A stretch of 64,000 nucleotides of DNA from Chloroflexota bacterium (GCA_039932375.1 JBDTQD010000002.1:133-64132), one strand, 5' to 3'; shown: positions 7,411-36,847, counted from the first letter of the stretch. Numbers and translations are program-made. Notes: generated from the sequence alone by a model not told the origin.

Positions 7411-8331
7411 CTATCGAGCTTCGAGGAGGCGCAGGCCGGCTTCCACCAGGCCGACGATGGGGAGCTCGGCGAGCTCGGCGCGGGTGAACCAGGCCGCCGC
7501 ATCGGTCGAGCCGTTCGTCTCGTCGCGGAGGTCTCCGCCGGTCGCCCGCACGCGGTAGATGACCTGGATCGCGTGGAATTCTCCCCCGCCGTTGCCGTCC
7601 GCTGTCGTTTCGGCGCGGACCCAGGACTCGACGCCTGCCAGCGAGATGATCTCGCCGGTCAGCCCGGTCTCCTCGTCCAGCTCGCGCAGGACCGCCGCAC
7701 CGAGATCCTCGCCGAAGTCGACGCCGCCTCCGGGGAGTGTCCACTGTCCGGGTTTGACCTCGCCTGGAGAGAGTCGGCAGAGGAGGATCCGCCCGGCATC
7801 GTCCAGGCACAGCGCGTAGGCCGCCACTCGGGTGACCCTGCCAGGCCTCTCGTCATCGACGTACAGGTCGGGGTCCAACAGCCACGCGAGCTCGCCGGCA
7901 CGCGGCTCGGGGACGCCGGGAAACTCGACACAGGCGAGGCCAGCCTTCCGCATGCGGACGGAGGCGGCGCCGGTGAGCAGGCTGACGGCGCTCGACAGGT
8001 CGGGCTCGTGACCGACGAACATCACCCTGCGTGCATCGGGGTGCGCCGCCATGGCACGCGCCAGGTCGCCCCACCCGGCACCTGGACGGAGCCGATCGTC
8101 CTCGACCGGAGATTCCCGCAGGCCCATGCCCGCCACGAACAGGTCGGCCGTGCGTCGTGCGCGAGGCAGGGGCGACGTCAGGACGAGGTCCGGGCGCAGG
8201 TTCAGACGGCGCCAGAGCGGCGCGGCTGCCTGCAGCTCGGCGACTCCCTCGGCGGTCAACTCCCGCGCGTCGTCATCCGACGCGCTCGAGTGGTGGCCTG
8301 CGGCGCCGTGCCGCAGGAAGTAGAGGATCAC
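7411..8331 (-). CDS. Fusion: histidine phosphatase (SixA/PGM-like, RHG motif) N-terminal + NUDIX hydrolase C-terminal
   Basis: LYFLRHGAAG catalytic motif; Nudix box GGGVDFGEDLGAAVLRELDEETGL; GTG start overlaps the upstream stop (GTGA). Confidence 0.75.
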   Translation of the reverse strand: MILYFLRHGAAGHHSSASDDDARELTAEGVAELQAAAPLWRRLNLRPDLVLTSPLPRARRTADLFVAGMGLRESPVEDDRLRPGAGWGDLARAMAAHPDARRVMFVGHEPDLSSAVSLLTGAASVRMRKAGLACVEFPGVPEPRAGELAWLLDPDLYVDDERPGRVTRVAAYALCLDDAGRILLCRLSPGEVKPGQWTLPGGGVDFGEDLGAAVLRELDEETGLTGEIISLAGVESWVRAETTADGNGGGEFHAIQVIYRVRATGGDLRDETNGSTDAAAWFTRAELAELPIVGLVEAGLRLLEAR

Positions 8332-8732
8332 CGTTGGTCGGGCTGCGGCGCCGGCTCGGTCCGAATCTTCCAGAACGAGTCCTTGAGCGCGATCCTGCCG
8401 TCGCGGAAAGTCCACAGGTCGCAGCCGCGGACCTCGAGCCGCTCGCCGGCGGTCGTGGTGCCGCGCAGCGTCCACTCCGAGGCGCCGCGATCGCCATCGA
8501 CGAAGTGCTCGTCCTCCTGGTAGCGAACGTCGGGGATGCCGCTGAATCGGGCGGCGAATCCATCGCGGATCGCAGCCTTCCCCACGAAGCGGGTCCCGTA
8601 TGCCTCCGTGCCGCGCGGAGATTCATACACGGCGTCGTCGGCGAAGTGCGACAGGATCGCGTCCAGATCGTGCGCGTCGAAGCCGGCGGCAACGGTCCGC
8701 AGCACCTCCACCCGGCGGGCGTGTTCGTCCAC
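8328..8732 (-). CDS. SnoaL-like/NTF2-fold protein
   Basis: NTF2-like pattern; GTG start 3 nt after the hmgA stop. Confidence 0.65.
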   Translation of the reverse strand: MDEHARRVEVLRTVAAGFDAHDLDAILSHFADDAVYESPRGTEAYGTRFVGKAAIRDGFAARFSGIPDVRYQEDEHFVDGDRGASEWTLRGTTTAGERLEVRGCDLWTFRDGRIALKDSFWKIRTEPAPQPDQR

Positions 8733-8735
8733 CCG

Positions 8736-9965
8736 TCAGTCCGGGAATGCCTCTGGTCCGCGGTCGGCGAGCTCACGAGCGTGCGACTCGGCATCGGCAT
8801 CGGACGGCGGCAGCCACGAGAAGGGGTAGCGCGGATCGTCAAGCTCGCCGGCTTCGCGAGTCAGGCGAAGCGGGTGGAATGTGTCGATCATGACCGCTAG
8901 CTCCTCGGTCGACTCCTTGCCAATGCTCGCCTCCACCGTTCCGGGATGCGGCCCGTGCGGGATGCCGGCGGGGTGCACCGTGAACGAGCTGATCTCCACC
9001 CCGCGGCGGCTCATGAAGTTGCCGGCCACGTAATAGATGACCTCGTCCGAGTTGATGTTCGAATGGTTGTACGGCGCCGGGATGGCGAGCGGGTGATAGT
9101 CGAACTTGCGCGGCACGAATGAGCAGACCACGAAGTTACGCGGCTGGAAGGTGAGATGCACCGGCGGCGGCTGGTGGATGCGCCCGGTGATCGGCTCGAA
9201 GTCGGCGATGTTGAAGGCGAACGGGTACAGGTACCCGTCCCAGCCGACCAGGTCGAACGGGTGAAAGGCGTAGTGGTAGGCGGTGATTCGGCCCCCCTTC
9301 TTGACCTCCACCACGAAGTCGCCCGACTCGTGGTGCGCCTCCATCTCGGTCGGTGGCCGGATATCGCGCTCGCAGTACGGGGCGTGCTCGAGCATCTGCC
9401 CGTACTCGTTGCGGTAGCGCTTGGGCGGCTCGATGTGGCTGGGGCATTCGAGCCACAGCAACCGCTGCTCATCGGCGCCGGGGATGACCCGGTAGGTGGT
9501 CCCGATGGGGATGACGAGATAGTCGCCCGGCCCGTACTCGATCGGCCCGAAGACCGTCTCCAGCGTGCCGTGCCCCTCGTGGACGTAGTACATCTCGTCC
9601 ATCTCGCCGTTGCGGTAGAAGTGCTCCATGGCCGATGCAGGGCGGACCACGCCAAAGGTGACATCGGCGTTGTAGAAGAGCGGGACGCGACCACCCACTG
9701 CATCGCCGGCGATCGGCACGCCGGTGGAGTTGATCAGGTGATGACGGTGGGGCCCGGCCTCGTCATCGGTCCATGGCTGGAGGCCGACGTCGCGGACCTT
9801 CTCGATCCGGTTGGTCTGGGTCGGGGGCGTGTGGTGGTAGAGGAGGCTCGCCTTGCCGGAGAAGCCTTCGACGCCGAACAGCTCCTCGGCATACAGGCCG
9901 CCATCCGGCTTGCGGAACTGGGTGTGGCGCTTGTGCGGCACCTGGCCACGCTGGATGTAGAACAC
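8736..9965 (-). CDS. hmgA: Homogentisate 1,2-dioxygenase
   Basis: HGD signature regions (LYAEELFGVEGF, YYVHEGHG); about 409 aa. Confidence 0.9.
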   Translation of the reverse strand: MFYIQRGQVPHKRHTQFRKPDGGLYAEELFGVEGFSGKASLLYHHTPPTQTNRIEKVRDVGLQPWTDDEAGPHRHHLINSTGVPIAGDAVGGRVPLFYNADVTFGVVRPASAMEHFYRNGEMDEMYYVHEGHGTLETVFGPIEYGPGDYLVIPIGTTYRVIPGADEQRLLWLECPSHIEPPKRYRNEYGQMLEHAPYCERDIRPPTEMEAHHESGDFVVEVKKGGRITAYHYAFHPFDLVGWDGYLYPFAFNIADFEPITGRIHQPPPVHLTFQPRNFVVCSFVPRKFDYHPLAIPAPYNHSNINSDEVIYYVAGNFMSRRGVEISSFTVHPAGIPHGPHPGTVEASIGKESTEELAVMIDTFHPLRLTREAGELDDPRYPFSWLPPSDADAESHARELADRGPEAFPD

Positions 9966-10063: not shown

Positions 10064-10549
10064 ATGTTCAACGTCACTCGCCTCAACCACGCCGTCCTCT
10101 GGGTCCGCGATGCCGACAAGGCGGCGGAGTTCTACCACCGAGTCTTCGGCTTCGAGGAGCTGGAGCGACCGGCAGGCATGCGCGCCGCCTTCATGCGTTC
10201 GCCGGCCGGTGGCAACCACCACGACCTGGGGTTGTTCGAGGTCGGGGCGGCGGCGCCACGACCGCCGCGTGGTTCGGTGGGTCTCTACCACCTGGCCTGG
10301 GAGGTCGGCACCATCGAGGACCTGGCGGCCGCGGCGAAGGCGCTCACCGAGGCCGGGGCGCTCGGCGGCGCCAGCGACCACGGTGTGAGCAAGTCGCTCT
10401 ATGGCCGCGACCCCGATGGGAACGAGTTCGAGATCATGTGGCAGGTGCCGCGCGAAGCGTGGGGCGAGTACGCCGATTCAGGCGTGGTCCTGCCGCTCGA
10501 CATGGAGGCCGAGCTGGAGCGCTGGGGCACGAACGGCGCCGTCCAGTAG
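10064..10549 (+). CDS. VOC family protein (glyoxalase-like)
   Basis: MFNVTRLNHAVLWVRD, two beta-alpha-beta-beta-beta modules; GAGGAG RBS. Confidence 0.75.
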   Translation: MFNVTRLNHAVLWVRDADKAAEFYHRVFGFEELERPAGMRAAFMRSPAGGNHHDLGLFEVGAAAPRPPRGSVGLYHLAWEVGTIEDLAAAAKALTEAGALGGASDHGVSKSLYGRDPDGNEFEIMWQVPREAWGEYADSGVVLPLDMEAELERWGTNGAVQ

Positions 10550-10577
10550 GAGCGCATCGGTACACTCGGGGGCGCCC

Positions 10578-11648
10578 GTGTCCGACCTCGCCCCCGTCAT
10601 CCGATCCGATGCGCACCTCGCCCACAGCGGGCTGATCGAGTTCGCCAGCGGGGTAGAGATTCCATGCTTCGACAACCCCGAGCGGATCCTGGCCATCGAG
10701 GCCGCCCTCGAGGCTGACGGCGGCTTCGCCTTCGAGCCACCCGCGGAGCACGGCCGCGCACCGATCCTGGCGGTCCACGACGCCACGATGATCGACGTCT
10801 TCGAGCACGCCTGGACCGATGCGCTTGCCGCCGGCGCCTCCGACGGCTCGCGGGCCTTCTTCCCCGACGCCTTCCTGGTGGCGGCGTACGGCGAGGACAT
10901 GGCGCTCGGCGGCATGCCGGCCGGGGCGCACCACCGCCTCGGAGCCTACTTGTTCGACACCGCCACGCCCATCGTGGCCGGAACGTGGCCGGCCGCCCTC
11001 TCAGCAGTTGACGTCGCGCTGACCGCCGCCGAGCGAGTGGTCGCCGGGGCGCCCCTCGCCTATGGGCTGTGCCGGCCACCGGGACACCACGCCGCGCGGG
11101 GCATGCTGGGCGGCTACTGCTACTTCAACAACGCCGCGATCGTGGCCGAGTGGCTGCGACGCGAGGGCGGCGCGCACAGTGTTGCGATCCTCGATATCGA
11201 CTACCACCACGGAAACGGCACGCAGCAGATCTTCTGGGAGCGGGGCGATGTCCTCTACCTCTCGCTCCATGCCGACCCGGCGCGGGCCTATCCCTACTTC
11301 TCCGGGTACGCGAGCGAGGCTGGCGCGGGCGAGGGGGCCGGCACGACCCGGAACTGGCCACTCGCCGTGCGGACTGGCCTCGATGGCTATGCGGTCGCGC
11401 TGGCGGAGGCCCTGCAGATGATCGTGGCCTTCGCTCCCGACGGGCCGCTCATCATCTCGGCCGGCTTCGACACCTTCGAGCGCGACCCGATCGGCGACCT
11501 CGCGATCCGGACTGAGGACTACCGGGAGATTGGCCGCCTGATTGCGGCCCTCGGAATGCCGACGATCGCGCTCCAGGAGGGCGGCTATGCGGTAGATGCG
11601 CTGGGCGCCAACGCCGTGGCGCTGCTGACCGGTCTGCACGGCGCGTGA
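10578..11648 (+). CDS. Histone-deacetylase-family amidohydrolase (AcuC/acetylpolyamine aminohydrolase-like)
   Basis: DIDYHHGNGTQ and PGHHA motifs; GTG start chosen after the low-complexity N-terminus. Confidence 0.8.
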   Translation: MSDLAPVIRSDAHLAHSGLIEFASGVEIPCFDNPERILAIEAALEADGGFAFEPPAEHGRAPILAVHDATMIDVFEHAWTDALAAGASDGSRAFFPDAFLVAAYGEDMALGGMPAGAHHRLGAYLFDTATPIVAGTWPAALSAVDVALTAAERVVAGAPLAYGLCRPPGHHAARGMLGGYCYFNNAAIVAEWLRREGGAHSVAILDIDYHHGNGTQQIFWERGDVLYLSLHADPARAYPYFSGYASEAGAGEGAGTTRNWPLAVRTGLDGYAVALAEALQMIVAFAPDGPLIISAGFDTFERDPIGDLAIRTEDYREIGRLIAALGMPTIALQEGGYAVDALGANAVALLTGLHGA

Positions 11649-12835
11649 CGTCGCGGCTGCAGGCGCGGCCGCTCTGGCCGGCCTACCTGGCCACCTTCAC
11701 CTTCACCCTGGGCCAATGGGCGTCAGGGGTCGCGATCCCGCTCCATGTCCACTCGCTCGGTGGCTCGCTGACCGAGGCTGGCACCATCGCCGCCATCCGG
11801 TTTGGGCTGGGTGCCCTCTTCAGCCTGCCGTTTGGCGCGGTGGCGGACGCGTGGGGGACGCGGCGCACGGTGATCGTGGCCGTCGTCGGCAGTGCAGCGG
11901 TCAACCTCGTCCCGATCCTGGCCCAGACGACCGGGAGCATCGCCCCACTCTACGGGTGGGCGATCCTGTCGGGGCTCACCTCATCGCTCTTCCTGCCGGC
12001 GATCGGCGCCTACGTGGCCGGAAGCGCGCATGAGTCGCGACGCGGGTCGGCCTTCGGCTGGATGACGCTCGGCACCCACAGTGGGATTGCCCTGGGGCCG
12101 GCGGTCGGAGGCCTCGCCTGGCAACATCTCGGGATCCCGCAGACCTACCTGGTCGCCACCGGTCTGGCGCTGGTGGCCCTGCTCGGGCCGGTCCTGATGC
12201 GCGGCGCGGTGCGCACCCGGATCGACGTTCGTGGCGTGCCGGCCATGGTCGGCCGGCTAGCGCGTGACCGGGTGGTGGTCGGGTGCTGGGTGGCGGGATT
12301 CGGGATCGGGCTGCCGTGGGGTGCGGTGAGCGGCCTCTTCCCGCTGTTCGGGACGTCGATTGGTCTCGCGGCGGGGTCCATCGGGCTCCTGCTGGCCCTC
12401 CAATCCATCACGAACGGGCTGTCCCGGGTCCCGCTCGGCCGACTGATCGATCGTCGCGCCGTGCCGCCCCTGGCGACTGCCGCGGGCTGCGCCGCCTACG
12501 CGGTCGTCACCTCGCTGCTGGGCCTGCAGACCGGGCCGCTCGGCATTGCACTTGTCTTCATGACGGGGATCCTGGCGCTCGCCTTCACGCTGATGATGAT
12601 CCAGGTCGTCATCAGCGAGCGTGCCCCCGCCGAGCTGCGGGCGACCGGGTTGGGCGGCTACTCGACCGCGCTCTCGGCCGGGTTGGGGATCGGTCCGTTC
12701 GTCTCGGGCGCGGTGGCCCAATCGGGCGGCTTCGGCATCGGCTACGGCAGTGTGGCGGCCATGGGGCTGGTGGTTGCAGGCATCGCCGCCGTCCTGCTAC
12801 TTGGAGCGCGACGTGTCACGCGAGGAGGCGGCTGA
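11645..12835 (+). CDS. MFS transporter
   Basis: 12-TM MFS pattern; GTG start overlaps the upstream stop (GTGA). Confidence 0.8.
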   Translation: MTSRLQARPLWPAYLATFTFTLGQWASGVAIPLHVHSLGGSLTEAGTIAAIRFGLGALFSLPFGAVADAWGTRRTVIVAVVGSAAVNLVPILAQTTGSIAPLYGWAILSGLTSSLFLPAIGAYVAGSAHESRRGSAFGWMTLGTHSGIALGPAVGGLAWQHLGIPQTYLVATGLALVALLGPVLMRGAVRTRIDVRGVPAMVGRLARDRVVVGCWVAGFGIGLPWGAVSGLFPLFGTSIGLAAGSIGLLLALQSITNGLSRVPLGRLIDRRAVPPLATAAGCAAYAVVTSLLGLQTGPLGIALVFMTGILALAFTLMMIQVVISERAPAELRATGLGGYSTALSAGLGIGPFVSGAVAQSGGFGIGYGSVAAMGLVVAGIAAVLLLGARRVTRGGG

Positions 12836-12838
12836 CTG

Positions 12839-14278
12839 TCAGCCGGCGAGGATCGCGGCGAAGGCAGCGGGGTCGATGTTTCCACCGCTGATCACGATCA
12901 CGCGGTGGTCGTCCCCGTCGGGCTGCGGAGCGGCTCCGGACAGGTGGGCCGCCATCCCCGCCGCGCCAGACGCCTCGACCACGAGACGCGCCCGGGTGGC
13001 GAGCTGTCGCATCGCATCGGCCATCTGCTCCTCGCTGACGGTGACGATCTCGTCCATGAATCGGCGGAGGTGCAGGAACGGGAGCCAGCCGAGATGCTCG
13101 ACGCGCAGCCCATCGGCCATGGTGCGGGTGGTCAGGGCGCCGTCCCAGCTCACGATCTCGCCCTTCGCCAGCGACTCCTGGGCATCCGCGGCGAGCTCTG
13201 GCTCGACACCGATGACCCGCGCGTTCGGCGCGAGCGCCTTGATGGCCGTCGCGATCCCCGACGAGAGCCCGCCGCCGCTCACCGGGATGAGGACGCTGGT
13301 AACCTCGGGCAGGTCCTCGGCGATCTCCAGGCCGCAGGTTCCCTGACCGGCGATGATCCGCCGCTCGTCGTACGGCTCGATCATGACCCGCCCGCCGCGC
13401 TCGACGTGCTCAAGCGCGATCGCGTGCCGCTCCTCCCCGGTGCGGCCGGCGAAGACGATTTCCGCGCCATCGCGCCGCACGCCCTCGACCTTGACCGGCG
13501 GGGCGTCCTCTGGCATCACGATCGTGGCGTGCGCCCCGAGGAGGCGGGCGGCGCGTGCCACGGCTTGTGCGTGGTTACCGCTCGAATAGGTGACGACACC
13601 GCGCGCTCGCTCCTCGTCGGTGAGCGAGGCGACGGCGTTGTAGGCGCCGCGCATCTTGAATGCTCCCACCGGCTGGAGGCTCTCCGGCTTCAGCCAGGTG
13701 CGGTCGTCCCAGCGCAGGAGCGGGGTGTGGAGGGCAACTCCCCGGATTCGTGCGGCGGCCGCGCGGATCTCGTCGATCGAGACCAGCTCGAGCCCGTCGA
13801 GCTGGTCGGCGTGCTCTTCGAGGTGCGCCAGCACGAAGCGCTCGACGATCGTCCGCACGCTCATCTCGCCGCGGGCCGGATGCAGCCCCATCACGTCCCA
13901 TGCATCGGCGGGGAGTGCGGCCAGCGTCGACGACAGCTCTCCGAGCTGCCCATTCACGCGCCGAAGAAGCTCCGCGGGGTCCGTCCGCCGCTCCCGCTCG
14001 ACCGCCCCCACGCGTGCGGCATCGGTCTTCATGCGCCCGAAGGGGATCGGCATTGCCGCCCCCGCATCGTGGGCGGCGAGGATGCGCCGGACCTGGTCGT
14101 GCCAGTAGGCGGGGAACTCGGCCAGGTGTGCCCACACCTGCCCAGCCTCCCAGCGCTCCTCCTCGCCCGGATCGGGCTCGCTCAAGGCCGTTGGCAGCGG
14201 CCGCGCGGCATGCTCGGCCAGCCTTCGCTCTGCCGAGCTCATCCGCTCCAGGGCAGTCGCCACCGTCTCCTTGGTCAT
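12839..14278 (-). CDS. Fusion: DinB_2/MDMPI_N-like domain (about 190 aa) + PLP-dependent threonine/serine dehydratase
   Basis: N-terminal WAHLAEFPAYW...VLAHLEEHADQL; C-terminal SLQPVGAFKMRGAYN PLP-lysine motif and Gly-rich loop; ATG 14278 overlaps the FAH stop (ATGA). Confidence 0.8.
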   Translation of the reverse strand: MTKETVATALERMSSAERRLAEHAARPLPTALSEPDPGEEERWEAGQVWAHLAEFPAYWHDQVRRILAAHDAGAAMPIPFGRMKTDAARVGAVERERRTDPAELLRRVNGQLGELSSTLAALPADAWDVMGLHPARGEMSVRTIVERFVLAHLEEHADQLDGLELVSIDEIRAAAARIRGVALHTPLLRWDDRTWLKPESLQPVGAFKMRGAYNAVASLTDEERARGVVTYSSGNHAQAVARAARLLGAHATIVMPEDAPPVKVEGVRRDGAEIVFAGRTGEERHAIALEHVERGGRVMIEPYDERRIIAGQGTCGLEIAEDLPEVTSVLIPVSGGGLSSGIATAIKALAPNARVIGVEPELAADAQESLAKGEIVSWDGALTTRTMADGLRVEHLGWLPFLHLRRFMDEIVTVSEEQMADAMRQLATRARLVVEASGAAGMAAHLSGAAPQPDGDDHRVIVISGGNIDPAAFAAILAG

Positions 14279-15279
14279 CGGTCCGCAGGCCGTTCCACGA
14301 CCGGCGTCGTCAGTGCACCGAGCCGGTCGACCGCCAGTGTCACCTCGTCGCCGGGCTGCAGGTAGCGCTTCAGAATCTCGTCCTTCACCTCCAGCAGGCA
14401 TCCCGTCCCCACCGTCCCCGACCCGATCAGGTCGCCGGGTCGCAGTCGTACGTCGGCGCTGGCGCGGGCCACCATCTCGCCGAAGCTGAACTGGGCATCG
14501 GCCCAGCTCCCGCGGCTGAGCTCGGTGCCGTTGACGGTCGCGGTCATGGTGAGGGTGTAGCCCTTTCCGCGGCGCGTCTCTTCCAGCTCGTCGGGGGTGA
14601 CCAGCCAGGGGCCGATGGAGGAGGCAAAATCCTTCCCCTTGGCTGGCCCCAGGCGAACGGCTGTCTCCTCGCGCTGCAGGTCACGGGCGCTCCAGTCGTT
14701 GAAGACGAGGTACCCGCCGATCGCCTCCTCCCCACGCTCTGCCGACAGGTCGTGGACAGGGGTGTCGATGAGCGCCGCGACCTCGAGCTCGTAGTCGAGC
14801 TCCTGCGAGGCCGCGGGGCACCAGACCGGCTCTTCGGGACCGCGGATCTCGGAGACATTCGAGAAGTAGAAGATCGGGATGCGGTACCAGGCCTCCGGGA
14901 CCGTCCCGCCGCGCCGCTCCCACATCGTCCTGACGTGTCCTTCGAAGGCGTAGAAGTCGCGCAGGGAGGGCGGCTGCAGGATCGGCGGCCCGAACGCCAG
15001 GTCCGCGGCCTCGAGCGACTCCTCGCCACTCGCCGCCTCGACGAGCTCGCCCAATGCGGCGACCCGCAGGCCTCGCGCGAGCAGCGCATCCAGGGTGGTC
15101 AGCGGCTGCCGATGGAGCGCCGAATTGTGCGCCAGACGAGGGTCTGCCTGCACCTGCGACCGCCGAACTGGCTCCAGGTCGAGCCAGCGTTGCGGAGCGT
15201 CGCCTCGGTCCAGCGCTGCCGCGAGCCGCCAGGATGTCCCGGCCGGAGCATGTGCCTCCCGAACGTGGGCGATCTTCAT
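14275..15279 (-). CDS. Fumarylacetoacetate hydrolase (FAH) family protein
   Basis: FAH-fold motifs (YEGHV, GTGC); internal ATG at 15279. Confidence 0.8.
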   Translation of the reverse strand: MKIAHVREAHAPAGTSWRLAAALDRGDAPQRWLDLEPVRRSQVQADPRLAHNSALHRQPLTTLDALLARGLRVAALGELVEAASGEESLEAADLAFGPPILQPPSLRDFYAFEGHVRTMWERRGGTVPEAWYRIPIFYFSNVSEIRGPEEPVWCPAASQELDYELEVAALIDTPVHDLSAERGEEAIGGYLVFNDWSARDLQREETAVRLGPAKGKDFASSIGPWLVTPDELEETRRGKGYTLTMTATVNGTELSRGSWADAQFSFGEMVARASADVRLRPGDLIGSGTVGTGCLLEVKDEILKRYLQPGDEVTLAVDRLGALTTPVVERPADR

Positions 15280-15335: not shown

Positions 15336-16358
15336 GTGAAGCGCATCGGATTCCTGTCGTTCGGGCACTGGACCAGCTCGCCGCCCTCTGGCACGCGATC
15401 GGCGGCGGACGCGCTCCTCCAGTCCATCGAGCTGGCGGTTGCCGCCGAAGAGCTCGGCGCCGACGGCGCCTATTTCCGCGTGCACCACTTCGCGCGGCAG
15501 CTCGCATCGCCCTTCCCGCTGCTGGCCGCGATCGGGGCGCGAACCAGCCGGATCGAGATCGGGACGGCAGTGATCGACATGCGCTACGAGAACCCGTACT
15601 ACATGGTCGAGGACGCCGGTGCGGCGGACCTCATTGCAGGCGGTCGCCTGCAGCTTGGGATCAGCCGCGGCTCGCCGGAGCAGGTCATCGACGGCTATCG
15701 GCACTTTGGCCATGCCCCGGCCGAGGGCGAGGATGACGGAGCGATGGCCCGCCGGCAGAGCCAAATCTTCCTGGAGCTTCTCTCGGGGAACGGATTCGCG
15801 GAGCCCAATCCACGGCCGATGTTCCCGAATCCTCCGGGCCTGCTGCGCCTCGAGCCCCATTCTCCCGGCCTCCGTGACCGCATCTGGTGGGGCGCCGCCA
15901 CGAACGCGACCGCGGCATGGGCGGCGAGGCTGGGCATGAACATGCAGACGTCCACCCTGAAGTTCGACGAGGGCGGCCAGCCACTGCATCTCCAGCAGGC
16001 CGAGCAGATTGGGGCATATCGCACCGCGTGGCGCGAGGCCGGCCACGCTCGCGAGCCGCGCGTCTCAGTGAGCCGCAGCATCTTCCCGCTGGTTGACGAT
16101 CGCGACCGCGCCTACTTTGGGCATGTGCAGCAGGGAAACGACCAGATCGGCTACCTCGACGAAACGACACGGGCAGTCTTCGGCCGTACCTACGCCGCCG
16201 AGCCGGAGCTCCTCGTCAAGCAGCTGGCGGAGGACACGGCCATCGCCGCTGCCGATACGCTGCTGCTGACGGTACCGAACCAGCTAGGCGTGGACTACAA
16301 CGCCCACGTCATCGAGAGCGTCCTGCGCCACGTTGCCCCAGCCCTCGGCTGGCGCTGA
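15336..16358 (+). CDS. LLM-class flavin/F420-dependent oxidoreductase (luciferase-like)
   Basis: LLM signature; GTG start. Confidence 0.8.
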   Translation: MKRIGFLSFGHWTSSPPSGTRSAADALLQSIELAVAAEELGADGAYFRVHHFARQLASPFPLLAAIGARTSRIEIGTAVIDMRYENPYYMVEDAGAADLIAGGRLQLGISRGSPEQVIDGYRHFGHAPAEGEDDGAMARRQSQIFLELLSGNGFAEPNPRPMFPNPPGLLRLEPHSPGLRDRIWWGAATNATAAWAARLGMNMQTSTLKFDEGGQPLHLQQAEQIGAYRTAWREAGHAREPRVSVSRSIFPLVDDRDRAYFGHVQQGNDQIGYLDETTRAVFGRTYAAEPELLVKQLAEDTAIAAADTLLLTVPNQLGVDYNAHVIESVLRHVAPALGWR

Positions 16359-16413: not shown

Positions 16414-17547
16414 TCAGAGGTTGCCGCGCTTCTCCTGCTCGCGCTCGATGGCCTCGAAGAGGGCCTTGAAGTTGCCGACCCCAAAGCCCCGCGAGCCGTG
16501 CCGTTCGATGATCTCGAAGAAGAAGGTCGGCCGATCCTGCACCGGCTTGGTGAAGATCTGGAGGAGGTAGCCCTCCTCGTCGCGGTCGGCCTCGATCCCC
16601 AGCTCCTCGAGGAGGTCCATCGGGATGCCGACGTCGCCGACGCGTTCCGGGAGATTGGCGTAGTACTCGTGCGGCAGGCCCAGGAACTCCACTCCCCGCG
16701 AGCGGAGGGCACGCACGGTCCCGACGATGTCCTCGGTGCGCAGGGCGATGTGCTGGGTCCCCGCCTCGAGATAGTAGTCGAGGAACTCCTGGATCTGGCT
16801 CTTGCGCTTGCCGTCGGCCGGCTCGTTGATCGGGAACTTGATGCGGCCGTTGCCCGACTGCATCACCTTGCTCATCAGGGCGGAGTACTCGGTGTGGATC
16901 ACCTTGTCGTCGTAGTGGATCAGCTGGCTGAAGCCCATCACGTCGCGGTAGAAGTCGACGAACCGGTTCATGTCGCCCAGCGCCACGTTGCCGACGCAGT
17001 GGTCCACCTCGAGCAGCTGCTGCCCGGACGCCGCGGCCGCTGGCTTCGTGATCCGGTGGTAGCCCGGCGCGAAGGTGCCGTTGTACTCGCTGCGGTCGAT
17101 GAACGAGTGCAGCACCTCACCGTAGGTGTGGATCGCCGAGCGGCGCAGGACGCCCTTCTCGCCGGGGACCTCGGTCGGCTCGAGTGCACTCACGGCTCCC
17201 CGCGCGGTCGTCTCGCGCCAGGCGGATGCCACGTCGTCTACGGCGAAGGCGATGTCGTGCACCCCGTCGCCGTGGCGGCGGACGTGCTCCGCCAGCTCAC
17301 CGTTGTCGGAGATCGGGGCGGTGAAGACGAAGCGGATGTCGTTCTGGACCAGCACGTAGCTGGCGCGGTCACGGACGCCCGTCTCGAGGCCGGCGTAGGC
17401 GACGGGGCTGAAGCCCCACAGGGCCCGATAGTAGGCAGCCGCCTGCTTGGCGTTCCCGACCCAGAACTCGACGTGGTCGATCCCCTTGAGGGGGAGGAAG
17501 TCGGCAGCCGCGTCCGCGGCGGCGGGGCGGGCGATCGTGTCGGTCAT
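16414..17547 (-). CDS. hppD: 4-hydroxyphenylpyruvate dioxygenase
   Basis: HPPD motifs (IDHVEFWVGNAKQAA, FFEIIER, two VOC modules). Confidence 0.9.
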   Translation of the reverse strand: MTDTIARPAAADAAADFLPLKGIDHVEFWVGNAKQAAAYYRALWGFSPVAYAGLETGVRDRASYVLVQNDIRFVFTAPISDNGELAEHVRRHGDGVHDIAFAVDDVASAWRETTARGAVSALEPTEVPGEKGVLRRSAIHTYGEVLHSFIDRSEYNGTFAPGYHRITKPAAAASGQQLLEVDHCVGNVALGDMNRFVDFYRDVMGFSQLIHYDDKVIHTEYSALMSKVMQSGNGRIKFPINEPADGKRKSQIQEFLDYYLEAGTQHIALRTEDIVGTVRALRSRGVEFLGLPHEYYANLPERVGDVGIPMDLLEELGIEADRDEEGYLLQIFTKPVQDRPTFFFEIIERHGSRGFGVGNFKALFEAIEREQEKRGNL

Positions 17548-18281
17548 GGAACCGATTGTACGGCGGCTGTCAGCGCCACCTCGATCATGCGCTCGACCGC
17601 GGCATCGAGGTCCTCGAGCGACATGTACGTCTCCTCGGTCCCCTCCTGCTCATTCAGGACGTCACTCACCGTCAGCAGGCAGGCGGCCTGGATCCCGGCC
17701 CGTGCCGCGAGGTAGAAGAGGACTGATGCTTCCATCTCGAAGGCGAGCACCCCGCGCTCGCGCCACTTTCTGAAGTAGTCGGCATCGGTGTTGTAGAAGA
17801 CGTCGACCGATGCCACCGGCCCGATCCGCAGTGGGATCCCCGCCTGCTCGGCCGCATGCACGAGCGTATGAGTCAGGGCGTAGTCGGCGGTGGGGGCGTA
17901 TCGGTCTCCGTGCAGGTAGGTCGTCGTTGCCCCGTCTGTGGGACAGGCCGATAGTGCGACTACCAGGTCGCCAGTGCGCAGCCCCGGCGCGATCCCTCCG
18001 CACGTGCCGACCCGGATCAGCTGCTTCGCGCCCAGTCGCAGCAGCTCCTCGGCCACGATCGCGAACGACGGGGTCCCCATCCCCGATGTCTGCACGCTCA
18101 CCGGCTGACCCTGGTAGGTGCCGGTCCAGCCGTAGAGGGCACGATGCTCGTTCACCTGCCGCGACTTCTCGAGGCCACCGTCGAAGCGTTCGGCGATCTT
18201 GCGGGCTCGGTTCGGGTCTCCCGGCAGCAGGACCAGCGGCGCGAAGTCTCCCGGCTCCGCGCGGAGGTGGATCTGTGGCAT
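17544..18281 (-). CDS. Purine nucleoside phosphorylase, DeoD-type (PNP/UDP family)
   Basis: GMGTPSFAIVAEEL...IRVGTCGGI; stop overlaps the hppD ATG (ATGA). Confidence 0.75.
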   Translation of the reverse strand: MPQIHLRAEPGDFAPLVLLPGDPNRARKIAERFDGGLEKSRQVNEHRALYGWTGTYQGQPVSVQTSGMGTPSFAIVAEELLRLGAKQLIRVGTCGGIAPGLRTGDLVVALSACPTDGATTTYLHGDRYAPTADYALTHTLVHAAEQAGIPLRIGPVASVDVFYNTDADYFRKWRERGVLAFEMEASVLFYLAARAGIQAACLLTVSDVLNEQEGTEETYMSLEDLDAAVERMIEVALTAAVQSVP

Positions 18282-18388
18282 GCCCGATAGCCTAACGCAG
18301 CCAACCACCGTTCAATTCATCTGGACTGTGGCGCCGGGGCCGTACGCGCGGATCATTCGGGGCGTATCGACGCTCCGGTACGATCCGG

Positions 18389-19243
18389 GTGATGACCACT
18401 TCCCATGATGGAGACCTGGCCTTCGCTATTGAGCTGGCCACACAGGCCGGCGAGCTGCTGAGCGGCAGCTACGAGCGAAGGTTGAAGGTCGATCGCAAGA
18501 GCAAGCGGGACGTGGTCACCGATGTCGACTACGCCAGCGAGGCGCTCATCATCCGCGCGATCCGGGACCGGTTCCCCGCTGACGCGATTCTTGCGGAGGA
18601 GTCAGGCCGTCACGAGCGGGCAGATCAGGGAGGGACTGTCAGCCGGCCTCATCGGCGGCGCTGGAGCCGACGGACGTGGGTCATCGATCCGCTCGACGGG
18701 ACGGTCAACTACGCAAACGGGATCCCGTTCTTCTGCGTTTCCATCGGTCTGGTGGAGGATGGCATGCCAGTGGTGGGCGTGGTACTCGACCCCTTGCGGG
18801 GAGACTGCTATGCGGCGAGCTCGACCACCAGGGCGATGCTCAACGGGCAGCCGTCGCGAGCCACCAATAAGGAGCAGCTGGGCGATTTCGTGATCAGTCT
18901 GGCGATCATCGGGCGCGGTGGCATCGCACGCGAAAGACGGGTCGCCCACGAGATCCGCATCGGGCGGCGGATGGGGAGCGCCGCGCTGGCCCTGGCGTAT
19001 ACGGCATCCAGCCGATTCGATGCGTTCGTGCAGAACGGCGGGCTCTCGCTGTGGGACATCGCCGCGGCCGGATTGATCGCCGAACGGGCCGGGGCAACGG
19101 TCACCGATCTGCACGGCGGACCGTGGTGGAACACGGCGAAGCGGGGCGCGAGGCTGAGCATCGTCTCCGCTCCGCAGCCCCACCACGCGAGGCTTATCGA
19201 GCTGCTGCGGGAGGCGCGCACGACGGTCGAGACCCGGCGCTAG
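18389..19243 (+). CDS. Inositol monophosphatase family protein (SuhB-like), with a longer-than-usual Arg-rich insert before WVIDPLDGT
   Basis: EESG...WVIDPLDGTVNY...FFCVSIGL motifs. Confidence 0.8.
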   Translation: MMTTSHDGDLAFAIELATQAGELLSGSYERRLKVDRKSKRDVVTDVDYASEALIIRAIRDRFPADAILAEESGRHERADQGGTVSRPHRRRWSRRTWVIDPLDGTVNYANGIPFFCVSIGLVEDGMPVVGVVLDPLRGDCYAASSTTRAMLNGQPSRATNKEQLGDFVISLAIIGRGGIARERRVAHEIRIGRRMGSAALALAYTASSRFDAFVQNGGLSLWDIAAAGLIAERAGATVTDLHGGPWWNTAKRGARLSIVSAPQPHHARLIELLREARTTVETRR

Positions 19244-19911
19244 GGCCCGATGGCAGCCTCGGAAAGAACGGCGGCGAACATGGCCAAGGTCCGGGCAGTG
19301 GCGCCCCAGATGCGGTGCCCGGCATAGCGATAGACGGCGGCCTGCAAGACCCAGCCGGGTCCCTCGATCAGCTCCTGGCTGATCACCCCATCGGTGAGCA
19401 GGTGACGCAGGGGAAGCTCAACGATTGCCGATACCTCGTCGACGTGAGGCTCGAGCGCCGGCCGCGCGGCAGCCGTCCCGACGAAGGGGCGCAGCTCGAA
19501 GTTGCTGACCGGGATCCAGATATCGTCGAGCGCCCCAACAATCGAGACAGTCCTCGGATCCACGCCCACCTCCTCGTACGCCTCGCGCAGGGCGGTCGCC
19601 TCCCGGGAAGCGTCAGCAGGATCGACTGCTCCGCCGGGCAGCGAGATCTCCCCGGCGTGCTCTCGCAGGTCGGCGTGGCGGATGGTCAGCGGCACCGCCA
19701 GCTCGCCATCACCACCCGGATAGATGAGCAGGAGCGTCGACGCCATCCGCGCGGGCGGGAAGGTCGAGCGGTCGTAGCGAGGCACGGCCGCTCCATCGGC
19801 GACGTCGCGCGGGGCGAATCGGGGATCGGCGCTGATCGGCCGGCGGGCGGCGGTGAGCGCACCGGCGATGACTTCCTGCCATCCGTCGCCGCCGCGTAAG
19901 ATTCGGTCCAT
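19240..19911 (-). CDS. NUDIX hydrolase, CoA pyrophosphatase-like (NudL family)
   Basis: ISLPGGAVDPADASREATALREAYEEVGV Nudix box with NudL-like context. Confidence 0.75.
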   Translation of the reverse strand: MDRILRGGDGWQEVIAGALTAARRPISADPRFAPRDVADGAAVPRYDRSTFPPARMASTLLLIYPGGDGELAVPLTIRHADLREHAGEISLPGGAVDPADASREATALREAYEEVGVDPRTVSIVGALDDIWIPVSNFELRPFVGTAAARPALEPHVDEVSAIVELPLRHLLTDGVISQELIEGPGWVLQAAVYRYAGHRIWGATARTLAMFAAVLSEAAIGP

Positions 19912-19972
19912 GGCTTTCCCGGCTCCCGCTAGTCGCGACTCCCTGGCCCGCGCCGCCCTGTACCGGTCGCGG

Positions 19973-20356
19973 GTGCTGGTCAACCGCACGCCCCACTTCA
20001 CCACGCGGGCCCGTCGCGAGGCAAATCAGGCCCTGGATCTGCTCGACGCCCAGCTGGGCCTGAACCAGGTCAACGTGCCGGAGGCGGCGCGCGGGATCGA
20101 GCTGCTGATCCGGGCAAACCCGTCGCTGGCATTCGGCCTGCTGCGCGACGCTGCCTTCGTCGATCGCTTCGGCGCTGCGTTGCGGCACCTCGGCCTCAGA
20201 GGTATCGAGCAGCGCCTCGACGAGGTGACCCATTCGGTGATGGCCGAGCCGATCCCGGGACCGACCGGTGGTCGTCGCCACCGGGACGAGCTGCCAGCGG
20301 AGGAGCGGGTCGACGCCGCTGGGAACCCGCTGCCCCCGCCCGCCGCAATCTACTGA
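19973..20356 (+). CDS. Hypothetical protein (start uncertain; GTG 19973 or ATG 19910)
   Basis: Protein-like composition and no better coding alternative; the ATG at 19910 shares a CCATGG with the divergent nudL start. Confidence 0.35.
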   Translation: MLVNRTPHFTTRARREANQALDLLDAQLGLNQVNVPEAARGIELLIRANPSLAFGLLRDAAFVDRFGAALRHLGLRGIEQRLDEVTHSVMAEPIPGPTGGRRHRDELPAEERVDAAGNPLPPPAAIY

Positions 20357-36514: not shown

Positions 36515-36847
36515 ATGTCGCGCCGCAGCTTCCTGGAGCAGACCGATCGGCTCATCGCCGACGGCGATGCCCTGGTGGCGACGCCCCACTGGGACCTCTT
36601 CCGCGCCTGGCTGCTGAACTCGGACGAGCTGCTCGAACGCGTGTGGGGACGGATGGACCGATACCACCTGGCCTGGCTGAACGTCGGTCGTGACTCGGCC
36701 GCTCCGGGATCGGCACTCGACGAGGCGGGCACCGCCCGCTTCATGGCGGAGGTGGCGAGCGGCAAGCTGGCGGTCCTGCGTACCATGCGGAACGCCGTTG
36801 CGCAGCGCGGCTGGAGAAATCTCAGCGACGACGAGGAGGAGCGGTGA
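36515..36847 (+). CDS. Hypothetical protein (110 aa)
   Basis: ATG after Arg-rich junk; GTGA coupling to the downstream deacetylase. Confidence 0.45.
   Translation: MSRRSFLEQTDRLIADGDALVATPHWDLFRAWLLNSDELLERVWGRMDRYHLAWLNVGRDSAAPGSALDEAGTARFMAEVASGKLAVLRTMRNAVAQRGWRNLSDDEEER

What the first reader, a model, noticed from the sequence alone, without database searches (positions are those of the whole stretch)
12839..15279. MDMPI_N/DinB_2 domain fused to threonine dehydratase and translationally coupled to an FAH-family hydrolase inside a tyrosine-catabolism neighbourhood
hppD (16.4-17.5 kb) and hmgA (8.7-10.0 kb) are present, but no glutathione-type maleylacetoacetate isomerase is evident. The gene directly downstream of the FAH-family hydrolase (ATGA overlap) starts with an approximately 190-aa domain of the mycothiol-dependent maleylpyruvate isomerase N-terminal (DinB_2) type, fused to a complete PLP-dependent Thr/Ser dehydratase. 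Hypothesis: the N-domain supplies the thiol-dependent cis-trans isomerase step between HGD and FAH in a mycothiol organism. A PIG-L deacetylase at 36.8 kb fits mycothiol metabolism. The fusion to a dehydratase is itself unusual and unexplained.
Basis: inference. Interest (0 to 1): 0.6.

Follow-up and report, generated by a model that had tools for sequence, protein, structure and literature searches.

The report
Probable missing isomerase of tyrosine breakdown
A small metal-binding (DinB/YfiT-type) module that sits directly after the fumarylacetoacetate-hydrolase gene in tyrosine-breakdown clusters of soil Chloroflexota and Acidimicrobiia is probably that pathway's unidentified isomerase in bacteria without the glutathione enzyme; in this window it is fused to a serine/threonine-dehydratase-like enzyme whose role is unexplained.

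Summary
On the minus strand, an FAH-family gene (15279..14275) overlaps by ATGA a 479-aa gene (14278..12839). That gene encodes a ~164-aa DinB/YfiT-fold domain fused to an intact serine-racemase/threonine-dehydratase-like PLP domain. It is not an assembly artefact.

The organism is a Chloroflexota of class Limnocylindria, not an actinobacterium, so "mycothiol organism" is unsupported.

The DinB module belongs to a small, unannotated family. It is mostly found as stand-alone ~165-aa proteins.
- In 74 of 80 species-level genome loci, its start overlaps the stop of the FAH gene by 4 nt, whether it is fused or free.
- In 52 of 56 informative metagenome loci, FAH lies directly upstream.
- In Acidimicrobiales it is instead fused to a HisC/Pat-type aminotransferase, inside hppD / AT::DinB / fumarylacetoacetase / HGD-like operons.

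In these clusters it is the only unassigned domain, and the isomerase is the only unassigned step. No GST-zeta gene was found nearby.

My best reading is a new DinB-type maleylacetoacetate isomerase with an unknown thiol cofactor. The PLP fusion arose once from a downstream operon neighbour, and its role remains unexplained. There is no biochemical evidence.

The parts
14275..15279 (-). FAH-family hydrolase gene (334 aa), the presumed fumarylacetoacetate hydrolase of this lineage
   Evidence: PF01557 at 173.8 bits. TIGR01266 gives only 69 bits against a cut-off of 375. An orthologue lies directly upstream of the DinB module in essentially every related locus.
14275..14278 (-). ATGA stop/start overlap between the FAH gene and the DinB::PALP gene (translational coupling)
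   Evidence: Read directly from the sequence. A 4-nt ATGA/GTGA overlap is conserved in 74 of 80 GTDB loci, in both fused and stand-alone forms.
12839..14278 (-). Fusion gene, 479 aa plus stop: DinB/YfiT-like domain fused to a PLP fold-type II domain
   Evidence: There are 120 homologues at 79-91% identity, all about 479 aa with the same architecture.
13787..14278 (-). DinB/YfiT-fold N-domain (aa 1-164), the candidate maleylacetoacetate isomerase. Candidate metal ligands are H51, H152 and H156. R82, R89, H133 and W43 are also conserved.
   Evidence: AF2 model with pLDDT 96. Foldseek gives YfiT 1rxq at TM 0.76 and MDMPI 2nsg/2nsf at 0.60-0.63. The family profile hits YfiT-like BH0186 (2rd9) at E 4e-6 with the His residues aligned.
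12842..13786 (-). Serine-racemase/threonine-dehydratase-like PLP domain (aa 165-479). The catalytic residues are intact. The substrate is unknown.
   Evidence: PALP at 242 bits. The best NCBIfam match, threo-3-hydroxy-L-aspartate ammonia-lyase, scores 306 bits, below its 452 cut-off. The best PDB match is S. pombe serine racemase 1v71 at E 5e-64. K208, SSGNH 232-236 and the G-rich loop are invariant.
16414..17547 (-). hppD, 4-hydroxyphenylpyruvate dioxygenase
   Evidence: TIGR01263 at 424.9 bits, above the 277 cut-off. It lies directly upstream of FAH in relatives L002, L007 and L010.
8736..9965 (-). Divergent homogentisate 1,2-dioxygenase-like gene (409 aa)
   Evidence: HgmA_N at 24.8 bits and TIGR01015 at 34 bits. 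It aligns to human HGD 1ey2 with the positions of H335, E341 and H371 conserved. It co-occurs with DinB in 54 of 80 genome loci and in the Acidimicrobiales operons.
15336..16358 (+). Luciferase-like monooxygenase gene on the opposite strand, inserted between hppD and FAH. It is not part of the conserved unit.
   Evidence: PF00296 at 92.7 bits. It is present in some relatives (L004, L019, L020, L027 and others) and absent in others (L002, L007, L010).

Best explanation
The window comes from a Limnocylindria-class Chloroflexota genome and carries a homogentisate (tyrosine/phenylalanine) catabolic neighbourhood. It is split into three minus-strand units: PNP-hppD, FAH-DinB::PALP, and HGD-like-SnoaL.

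The N-terminal ~164 aa of the 479-aa protein is a single-domain DinB/YfiT-fold metalloprotein. It belongs to a small, so far unannotated family that I propose is the pathway's maleylacetoacetate cis-trans isomerase, replacing the glutathione-dependent GST-zeta enzyme (MaiA/HmgC).

Inferred mechanism, by analogy with the DinB-superfamily maleylpyruvate isomerases:
1. A divalent metal held by H51, H152 and H156 positions a low-molecular-weight thiolate and/or the substrate's dicarbonyl.
2. Conserved R82 and R89 bind the carboxylates.
3. The thiolate adds to the cis double bond, the bond rotates, and the thiol leaves.
4. The product, fumarylacetoacetate, goes to the FAH enzyme, which is made in equimolar amounts through the conserved ATGA coupling.

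The identity of the thiol is unknown, and mycothiol is not indicated.

The C-terminal PLP domain is an intact serine-racemase/threonine-dehydratase-like enzyme. It was a separate gene directly downstream (the split form FAH-DinB-PALP still exists) and became fused once in one clade. Its contribution to the pathway is unknown and may be independent.

Shown: the anatomy, fold, conserved residues, gene-order conservation, and the independent fusions.
Inferred: the isomerase activity, the thiol and metal dependence, and the hand-over to FAH.
For: 1. Architecture and fold.

2. The family is small (393 clusters at 50% identity) and consists mostly of stand-alone ~165-aa proteins. It matches no NCBIfam model, and sources name it only 'DinB family protein' or 'hypothetical'.

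3. The invariant unit is FAH followed by DinB.
- 74 of 80 GTDB species loci show the 4-nt stop/start overlap, in fused (about 41) and stand-alone (about 35) forms alike.
- 52 of 56 metagenome loci with upstream sequence have FAH directly upstream.

4. There is an independent Rosetta-stone link. HisC/Pat-type aminotransferase::DinB fusions (at least 120 clusters, Acidimicrobiales) sit in operons of the form AsnC-hppD-AT::DinB-fumarylacetoacetase-HGD-like, with or without phenylalanine hydroxylase. The fumarylacetoacetase there passes TIGR01266 at 376-429 bits against a cut-off of 375. In these operons the DinB domain is the only unassigned domain and the isomerase is the only unassigned step.

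5. Other gene orders in distant members (36-48% identity) also place it in the pathway:
- hppD-HGD-AT-FAH-DinB (L087, L107, L132, L160)
- hppD-HGD-FAH-DinB (L153)
- FAH-HGD-DinB (L088)
- hppD-DinB with a 4-nt overlap (L090)
- FAH-DinB::GNAT (L175)
.

6. No GST-zeta-like sequence was found in the window or in the 94 loci fetched up to that point (L001-L094, 1.34 Mb in all), and no GST was found among the window ORFs that were scanned.

7. The catalytic signature is conserved family-wide: W43, H51, G81, R82, R89, H133, G137, H152, H156.

8. The gap is acknowledged in the literature. No MAAI gene can be identified in B. anthracis although hppD, hmgB and hmgA form an operon (PMC4457819). No paper in the library links DinB proteins to homogentisate.

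9. FAH followed by the isomerase is the same gene order as hmgB-hmgC in Pseudomonas. The order is from my own knowledge; the gene names appear.
Against: - There is no biochemical evidence. Everything rests on guilt by association and fold.
- The closest solved structure is the bacillithiol S-transferase YfiT, not the isomerase MDMPI.
- The DinB superfamily is functionally very diverse.
- Some family members lie outside any tyrosine context: L085 (HisKA-DinB-LepA), L091 (DinB-Ldh_2) and L159/L164.
- Maleylacetoacetate can isomerise non-enzymatically with thiols. Some Bacillus species are reported to hydrolyse it directly (PMC4457819). A dedicated isomerase is therefore not strictly required.
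- Within the fused clade the N-domain is less conserved than the PLP domain (mean column conservation 0.79 against 0.94).
- The thiol cofactor of Limnocylindria is unknown.
- Only flanks of at most 10 kb were inspected, so a GST-zeta gene elsewhere in these genomes is not excluded.
Confidence: 0.6

Rival explanations
1. The DinB module is a thiol S-transferase or other detoxifying enzyme that protects the cell from reactive pathway by-products. Candidates are benzoquinone acetate formed from oxidised homogentisate, or the electrophilic enediones maleyl- and fumarylacetoacetate. On this view it is not the isomerase.
For: The best structural match is YfiT/BstA, a bacillithiol S-transferase, and the family profile hits YfiT-like BH0186. 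Characterised DinB-superfamily members are mostly S-transferases (PMC10950700). In some loci the gene follows hppD or the HGD-like gene rather than FAH.
Against: The near-universal 4-nt coupling to FAH and the fusion to the pathway aminotransferase argue for a stoichiometric pathway enzyme. This reading leaves the isomerase step unassigned in operons that use a canonical, trans-specific fumarylacetoacetase.
Confidence: 0.15
2. No isomerase is needed. Either the short FAH-family enzyme hydrolyses maleylacetoacetate directly, or isomerisation is spontaneous. The DinB module would then be an accessory partner of FAH (a metal-delivery or structural subunit), or it would have an unrelated role.
For: The window's FAH is far from the fumarylacetoacetase equivalog (69 bits against a cut-off of 375). 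Maleylpyruvate hydrolases exist in the FAH family (PDB 6jvv among the hits). Maleylacetoacetate hydrolase activity is reported in Bacillus (PMC4457819). Tight translational coupling is typical of protein partners.
Against: The same DinB family also accompanies canonical fumarylacetoacetase in Acidimicrobiales, where it is fused to the aminotransferase and not to FAH. It keeps a complete metal triad and conserved Arg/His residues typical of an active site.
Confidence: 0.1
3. The fusion is a functionally integrated bifunctional enzyme. The PLP domain would take the place of the aromatic aminotransferase as an entry step, for example by dehydrating a beta-hydroxy aromatic amino acid to (4-hydroxy)phenylpyruvate. 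Alternatively it would supply or recycle the thiol used by the DinB domain.
For: The pattern is complementary. Clusters with an aminotransferase have no PALP gene. Limnocylindria clusters have a PALP gene (fused, split or nearby) in 52 of 80 loci and no HisC-type aminotransferase within 10 kb. The DinB module is fused to a PLP amino-acid-converting enzyme in two separate cases. The PLP domain is very strongly conserved and has an unusual YD(D/E)RR substrate-loop motif.
Against: - Fold-type II dehydratases cannot deaminate tyrosine itself.
- The complementary pattern rests on only two or three independent lineages.
- About 35 species keep FAH-DinB without an adjacent PALP gene.
- DinB is also fused to a GNAT in the same position, which suggests opportunistic fusion with whatever gene lies downstream.
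Confidence: 0.1
4. The fusion is an assembly or frameshift artefact that joins two separate genes.
For: Split forms exist in related genomes (L079, L080 and 15 metagenome loci). A few fused-clade loci have interrupted ORFs (L032, L054).
Against: More than 120 independent clusters from different assemblies and about 41 species genomes share an uninterrupted ~479-aa ORF. The fused forms are monophyletic.
Confidence: 0.01

Closest known systems
Mycothiol-dependent maleylpyruvate isomerase (MDMPI, Corynebacterium glutamicum; PDB 2NSF/2NSG; Pfam MDMPI_N + MDMPI_C)
   Same: It has a DinB-type four-helix-bundle metal domain (Foldseek TMq 0.60-0.63). The reaction is of the same type, thiol-assisted cis-trans isomerisation of a maleyl-dicarbonyl ring-cleavage product ahead of an FAH-family hydrolase. 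The gene sits next to the hydrolase gene.
   Different: The window's domain has no MDMPI_C domain. Its metal site is His/His/His rather than His/Glu/His. It matches no NCBIfam model and gives only borderline MDMPI_N scores. Sequence identity is 16-19%. The presumed substrate is maleylacetoacetate (homogentisate pathway), not maleylpyruvate (gentisate pathway). The host is Chloroflexota, so mycothiol is not implied.
BagL, the L-cysteine-dependent maleylpyruvate isomerase of Paenibacillus sp. NyZ101 (Liu & Zhou 2012, listed in the references of PMC8562490; details from my own knowledge)
   Same: It is a non-glutathione, non-mycothiol maleyl isomerase in a Gram-positive bacterium. It shows that such isomerases can use simple thiols.
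   Different: It acts in the gentisate pathway.
YfiT/BstA and YfiT-like proteins (bacillithiol S-transferases; PDB 1RXQ, 2RD9)
   Same: This is the closest solved fold (TM 0.76). A profile hit to 2rd9 at E 4e-6 aligns the metal histidines. The proteins are also single-domain and about 170 aa.
   Different: Those proteins are S-transferases or of unknown function, and they are not linked to FAH, HGD or HPPD genes. Sequence identity is about 17%.
GST-zeta maleylacetoacetate isomerase (MaiA/HmgC/GSTZ1, EC 5.2.1.2)
   Same: It carries out the same proposed reaction at the same pathway position. In Pseudomonas hmgABC the gene likewise follows the FAH gene (own knowledge).
   Different: The fold is unrelated (thioredoxin-like GST) and the enzyme depends on glutathione. 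No homologue was found in the window or in the loci fetched up to that point (L001-L094).
Serine racemase / catabolic threonine dehydratase / threo-3-hydroxyaspartate ammonia-lyase group of fold-type II PLP enzymes
   Same: The C-domain aligns end to end with S. pombe serine racemase (E 5e-64). The PLP lysine, the SSGNH loop, the G-rich phosphate loop and the Mg-site acids are all conserved.
   Different: It falls below every NCBIfam equivalog cut-off (best 306 against 452). It has YD(D/E)RR in place of the YDDP(K/L) or YDHPH loop, and a 3-residue insertion before TTRTMADG. Here it is fused to a DinB domain.

Membership tests
MDMPI (mycothiol-dependent maleylpyruvate isomerase family) | N-terminal DinB-like four-helix bundle with a divalent-metal site | tested here: met
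   AF2 model with pLDDT 96. Foldseek matches 2nsg/2nsf at TMq 0.60-0.63 with probability 1.00. H51, H152 and H156 are conserved.
MDMPI (mycothiol-dependent maleylpyruvate isomerase family) | C-terminal MDMPI_C domain (PF07398) | tested here: not met
   No PF07398 hit in the window protein or in homologues. The stand-alone forms end after the bundle at about 165 aa.
MDMPI (mycothiol-dependent maleylpyruvate isomerase family) | Match to the curated family models (Pfam MDMPI_N above its gathering score; an NCBIfam mycothiol-dependent maleylpyruvate isomerase family model) | tested here: not met
   The window N-domain matches only DinB_2 (29.6 bits). MDMPI_N appears only at 20-27 bits in some homologues. 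NCBIfam gives zero families at E<=0.01 for four family members.
MDMPI (mycothiol-dependent maleylpyruvate isomerase family) | Mycothiol as cofactor, in a mycothiol-producing host | tested here: inconclusive
   The host is Chloroflexota, class Limnocylindria. The PIG-L protein's best match is BshB2 at 64.7 bits against a cut-off of 195; Mca scores 42.8 and MshB 30.8. Cofactor use cannot be tested in silico.
DinB/YfiT-like (S-transferase-like) superfamily | Four-helix bundle with a conserved His triad (one His on an early helix, HxxxH on the last helix) | tested here: met
   PF12867 scores above its cut-off. 1rxq matches at TM 0.76. The profile alignment to 2rd9 aligns H51, H133, H152 and H156.
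DinB/YfiT-like (S-transferase-like) superfamily | Thiol-dependent catalytic activity | not testable with these tools
   Needs an enzyme assay.
GST-zeta maleylacetoacetate isomerase (MaiA/HmgC) | Thioredoxin-like GST fold with the zeta-class motif | tested here: not met
   The N-domain is an all-helical DinB bundle. tblastn with human GSTZ1 (sequence recalled from memory) finds nothing at E<=1 in the window plus the 94 loci fetched up to then, 1.34 Mb in all.
Maleylacetoacetate isomerase activity (EC 5.2.1.2), functional class | Catalyses 4-maleylacetoacetate to 4-fumarylacetoacetate | not testable with these tools
   Only genomic association is available.
Fold-type II PLP serine/threonine dehydratase / serine racemase group | PALP domain with the PLP-binding Lys, the S-x-G-N-H loop and the Gly-rich phosphate loop | tested here: met
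   PF00291 at 242 bits. K208, S232-H236 and G335/G336 are invariant in 58 homologues.
Fold-type II PLP serine/threonine dehydratase / serine racemase group | Equivalog-level match to a characterised enzyme (TdcB, IlvA, threo-3-hydroxyaspartate ammonia-lyase, EutB, BhcB) | tested here: not met
   The best is PRK07048 at 306.6 bits against a cut-off of 452. All others also fall below their cut-offs.
Fumarylacetoacetase (TIGR01266 equivalog), for the coupled upstream gene | FAA_hydrolase_N plus FAA_hydrolase domains, scoring above the equivalog cut-off | tested here: not met
   The window FAH has only the C-terminal FAA_hydrolase domain, and TIGR01266 scores 69 against 375. The Acidimicrobiales partners do meet the cut-off, at 375.7 and 428.8.

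The most novel reading that the evidence does not exclude
The DinB::PLP protein is a truly bifunctional pathway enzyme. In this reading the serine-racemase/dehydratase-like domain (with its unusual YD(D/E)RR loop) replaces the missing aromatic aminotransferase as an entry step. It would produce (4-hydroxy)phenylpyruvate or another pathway input from a beta-substituted amino acid, or it would supply the thiol cofactor. It would be physically tethered to a new single-domain DinB-type maleylacetoacetate isomerase that works with a non-glutathione, non-mycothiol thiol, or with the metal alone.
Probability: 0.08. Interest if true: 0.8.

Novelty: new variant of a known kind. Interest (0 to 1): 0.62.

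Why it matters
The isomerase step of the homogentisate pathway has one known enzyme type, the glutathione-dependent GST-zeta enzyme. It has remained unassigned in bacteria that lack it; the B. anthracis literature says so explicitly (PMC4457819).

This work gives a defined ~165-aa protein family with a conserved active-site signature. The family is tightly coupled to FAH in abundant soil Chloroflexota and fused to the pathway aminotransferase in Acidimicrobiales. That makes the question directly testable with a simple coupled assay or with complementation.

If confirmed, it would have four consequences:
- It would add a second, non-homologous maleylacetoacetate isomerase.
- It would extend DinB-superfamily chemistry from maleylpyruvate to maleylacetoacetate.
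- It would correct thousands of 'threonine dehydratase', 'histidinol-phosphate transaminase' and 'DinB family protein' annotations.
- It would give a handle on which low-molecular-weight thiol Limnocylindria use.

Tried and rejected
- An exact-sequence look-up of the window protein found nothing on record.
- Sequence searches of the PDB with the N-domain alone, and with a narrow profile of it, found nothing. Only the diverse profile reached 2rd9.
- The first alignment (A4) was too diverse for the search for related loci, so A5 and A7 were used instead.
- The promoter and terminator scan of 12.4-18.5 kb found nothing.
- PIG-L as a marker of mycothiol was rejected because it scores far below all BshB, MshB and Mca cut-offs.
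- 'Actinobacterium' was rejected because the closest relatives are Limnocylindria MAGs.
- 'Assembly artefact' was rejected.
- P0245 (834 aa, apparently AT-DinB-FAH) was rejected as a true triple fusion. Its sequence shows frameshifted low-complexity stretches, so it only indicates adjacency.
- I looked for thiol metabolism or tyrosine catabolism in a recent Limnocylindria genomics paper and found no mention.
- The BagL paper is not held.
- I could not derive a substrate for the PLP domain from loop comparisons.
Full report
**Observation.** The window has about 69% G+C. On the minus strand an FAH-family gene runs from the ATG at 15279 to the TGA at 14277-14275 (334 aa; PF01557 at 173.8 bits). 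The next gene starts at the ATG at 14278, so the two genes share ATGA. The 520-aa ORF listed from 14401 is an over-extension, because the 120 closest homologues are all about 479 aa.

The 479-aa product has two domains:
- DinB_2 (PF12867), aa 17-159, 29.6 bits against a cut-off of 24.8.
- PALP (PF00291), aa 185-465, 242 bits.

The N-domain is about 160-165 aa rather than about 190, and it matches DinB_2 rather than MDMPI_N.

hppD (16414-17547) is a clean TIGR01263 match. The 'hmgA' gene (8736-9965) is a divergent homologue (TIGR01015 34 bits against 510) that nevertheless aligns with human HGD through the three iron ligands.

**Origin.** All close homologues (79-91% identity, same architecture) come from soil metagenomes and from MAGs named Chloroflexota or Candidatus Limnocylindria. 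The organism is therefore not an actinobacterium. The PIG-L protein at 36844-37572 scores 64.7 bits on BshB2 (cut-off 195), 42.8 on Mca and 30.8 on MshB. It says nothing specific about mycothiol.

**The N-domain.**
- A search of 1.84 billion cluster representatives with aa 1-162 found only 393 clusters at E<=1e-3. Most are stand-alone proteins of 160-175 aa.
- Sources call them 'DinB family protein' or 'hypothetical', and no NCBIfam model matches them.
- With a 75-sequence alignment, AlphaFold gives a confident model (pLDDT 96, pTM 0.88) of a four-helix bundle.
- Foldseek against the PDB ranks YfiT/BstA (1rxq) first at TM 0.76. MDMPI (2nsg/2nsf, TMq 0.60-0.63), ClbS and other DinB proteins follow.
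- A diverse family profile hits the YfiT-like protein BH0186 (2rd9) at E 4e-6, with H51, H133, H152 and H156 aligned to histidines.
- Across the family, W43, H51, G81, R89, G137 and H156 are invariant. R82, H133, H152 and Q159 are nearly invariant.
- The window's N-domain contains no cysteine (sequence) and none is conserved across the family, so a nucleophile would have to be external.

**Gene context, Limnocylindria.** A scan of GTDB species genomes returned 304 relatives, and the best 80 loci were analysed.
- An FAH orthologue lies directly upstream of the DinB module wherever upstream sequence exists.
- In 74 of 80 loci the FAH stop and the DinB start overlap by 4 nt (ATGA or GTGA).
- About 41 loci carry the DinB::PALP fusion (474-490 aa), and about 35 carry a stand-alone DinB gene (160-172 aa).
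- L079 and L080 carry FAH, stand-alone DinB and a separate PALP gene in a row.
- A neighbour-joining tree of the DinB modules puts all fused forms in one clade. The split forms are basal and the stand-alone clade is sister. This indicates one fusion event with the downstream neighbour.
- The HGD-like gene is within a few kb in most loci, and hppD lies upstream in the fused clade.

A metagenome scan seeded with a more distant member gave the same picture. Of 56 loci with at least 700 nt of upstream sequence, 52 have FAH directly upstream. Fifteen show the split FAH-DinB-PALP operon, and four are fused.

**Gene context, other lineages.** The same DinB family is fused to the C-terminus of a HisC/Pat-type aminotransferase in Acidimicrobiales (530-545 aa; at least 120 clusters down to 48% identity).

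Three such loci (L084, L093, L094) have the operon AsnC regulator, hppD, AT::DinB, fumarylacetoacetase, HGD-like gene. Two of them (L084, L093) also have phenylalanine hydroxylase nearby. Their FAH passes the TIGR01266 equivalog cut-off (375.7 and 428.8 against 375.3). These operons encode every step from phenylalanine or tyrosine to fumarate plus acetoacetate except the isomerase, and the DinB domain is their only unassigned domain.

Stand-alone members at 36-48% identity occur in these arrangements:
- hppD-HGD-AT-FAH-DinB (L087, L107, L132, L160)
- hppD-HGD-FAH-DinB (L153)
- FAH-HGD-DinB (L088)
- hppD-DinB with a 4-nt overlap (L090)
- FAH-DinB::GNAT (L175)

A minority lie elsewhere: L085, L091 and L159/L164.

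No GST-zeta-like sequence was detected in the window plus the 94 loci fetched up to that point (L001-L094), 1.34 Mb in all. The query was human GSTZ1 recalled from memory, so this negative result is weak. No GST domain was seen among the window ORFs scanned.

**Interpretation.** The conserved functional unit is FAH plus DinB, embedded in the homogentisate pathway. The most economical role for the DinB module is the missing maleylacetoacetate cis-trans isomerase. This is analogous to the DinB-superfamily maleylpyruvate isomerases of the gentisate pathway: MDMPI, whose structure is 2NSF, and the L-cysteine-dependent BagL, which is cited in PMC8562490.

The mechanism I propose is inferred by analogy, not shown. 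A metal is bound by three histidines. A thiolate adds to the cis double bond, the bond rotates, and the thiol is eliminated. The arginines bind the carboxylates. The product passes to the co-translated FAH.

The literature in the library recognises the gap. No MAAI gene is identifiable in B. anthracis despite an hppD-hmgB-hmgA operon (PMC4457819). [quoted passage not shown] I found no paper connecting DinB proteins with homogentisate.

**The PLP domain.** It aligns end to end with S. pombe serine racemase (E 5e-64) and with catabolic threonine dehydratases. It keeps the PLP lysine (K208), the SSGNH loop, the glycine-rich loop and the Mg-site acids. It is more conserved than the N-domain, with mean column conservation of 0.94 against 0.79. 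It falls below every NCBIfam equivalog cut-off (best 306 against 452). It also has YD(D/E)RR where relatives have YDDP(K/L) or YDHPH.

Its role is unresolved. Three observations suggest an opportunistic fusion with the downstream operon neighbour:
- The fusion arose once.
- About 35 species lack the fusion.
- A GNAT is fused to DinB in the same position elsewhere.

The complementary pattern is a hint of a functional link, but it rests on few independent lineages. Clusters with an aminotransferase have no PALP gene. Limnocylindria clusters have PALP (52 of 80 loci) and no HisC-type aminotransferase within 10 kb.

**Verdict.** The central hypothesis, that a DinB-type domain acts as the isomerase between HGD and FAH, is well supported by comparative genomics but remains untested biochemically. 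The mycothiol and actinobacterial framing, and the PIG-L argument, are not supported.

The family fails defining features of MDMPI: it has no MDMPI_C domain and matches no curated model. It is best described as a new variant within the DinB superfamily that probably works like MDMPI or BagL on a different substrate.

Noticed in passing
window 17544-18308 (-) and 16414-17547 (-): A DeoD-type purine-nucleoside phosphorylase gene overlaps the start of hppD by 4 nt. The PNP-hppD pairing is conserved in most fused-clade relatives. It is an odd, unexplained partnership for a tyrosine-catabolism gene.
   Followed up: partly
window 10401-11648 (+) and 11645-12835 (+): An HDAC-like amidohydrolase gene and an MFS transporter gene overlap by 4 nt and converge on the fusion gene, with stops 3 nt apart. 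The pair is conserved next to FAH-DinB across Limnocylindria, either downstream or upstream. Its function is unknown.
   Followed up: partly
window 8328-8732 (-): A SnoaL_2-like gene starts 3 nt after the stop of the HGD-like gene. The same pairing occurs in L005 and L025. It may be an extra pathway component.
   Followed up: no
window 8736-9965 (-); L084 10014-11186; L087 4639-5799: The 'hmgA' of all these clusters is a distinct, divergent HGD-like family of 386-409 aa. TIGR01015 scores 34-62 bits against a cut-off of 510, yet the Fe ligands are conserved. It always travels with this DinB family, even where FAH is the canonical type.
   Followed up: partly
window 15336-16358 (+): A luciferase-like monooxygenase gene is inserted on the opposite strand between hppD and FAH. 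It is present in many relatives (80-95% identity) and absent in others.
   Followed up: partly
L026 10001-10474 and 10498-10950: Two tandem DinB-family copies (65% and 51% identity to the window's N-domain) follow FAH.
   Followed up: no
P0128 / L175 128-1384; P0135: There are further fusions of the same DinB family. One is DinB::GNAT acetyltransferase, still overlapping an upstream FAH gene by 4 nt. The other is DinB::hemerythrin.
   Followed up: partly
window aa 303-307 of the fusion (about 13358-13372, minus strand): The PLP-domain substrate loop reads YD(D/E)RR instead of the YDDP(K/L) or YDHPH found in threonine dehydratases and serine racemases. There is also a 3-residue insertion before TTRTMADG. 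This may point to an acidic or otherwise unusual substrate.
   Followed up: partly
P0245 (834 aa, metagenome gene call): This is a chimeric, frameshifted gene call that runs through the aminotransferase, DinB and canonical FAH genes. It is an annotation artefact that nevertheless records their adjacency.
   Followed up: yes
window 38711-39379 (+): A 222-aa ORF has a weak match to 4a-hydroxytetrahydrobiopterin dehydratase (34.5 bits against a cut-off of 80). That enzyme is the recycling partner of phenylalanine hydroxylase.
   Followed up: no
window 7411-8475 (-): An ORF combines a histidine-phosphatase domain and a NUDIX domain. A second NUDIX gene lies at 19240-20004.
   Followed up: no
L032 and L054 (fused clade): The DinB::PALP ORF is cut short at 355 and 364 aa inside otherwise fused-type loci. 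This could be frameshift, pseudogene or assembly error.
   Followed up: no
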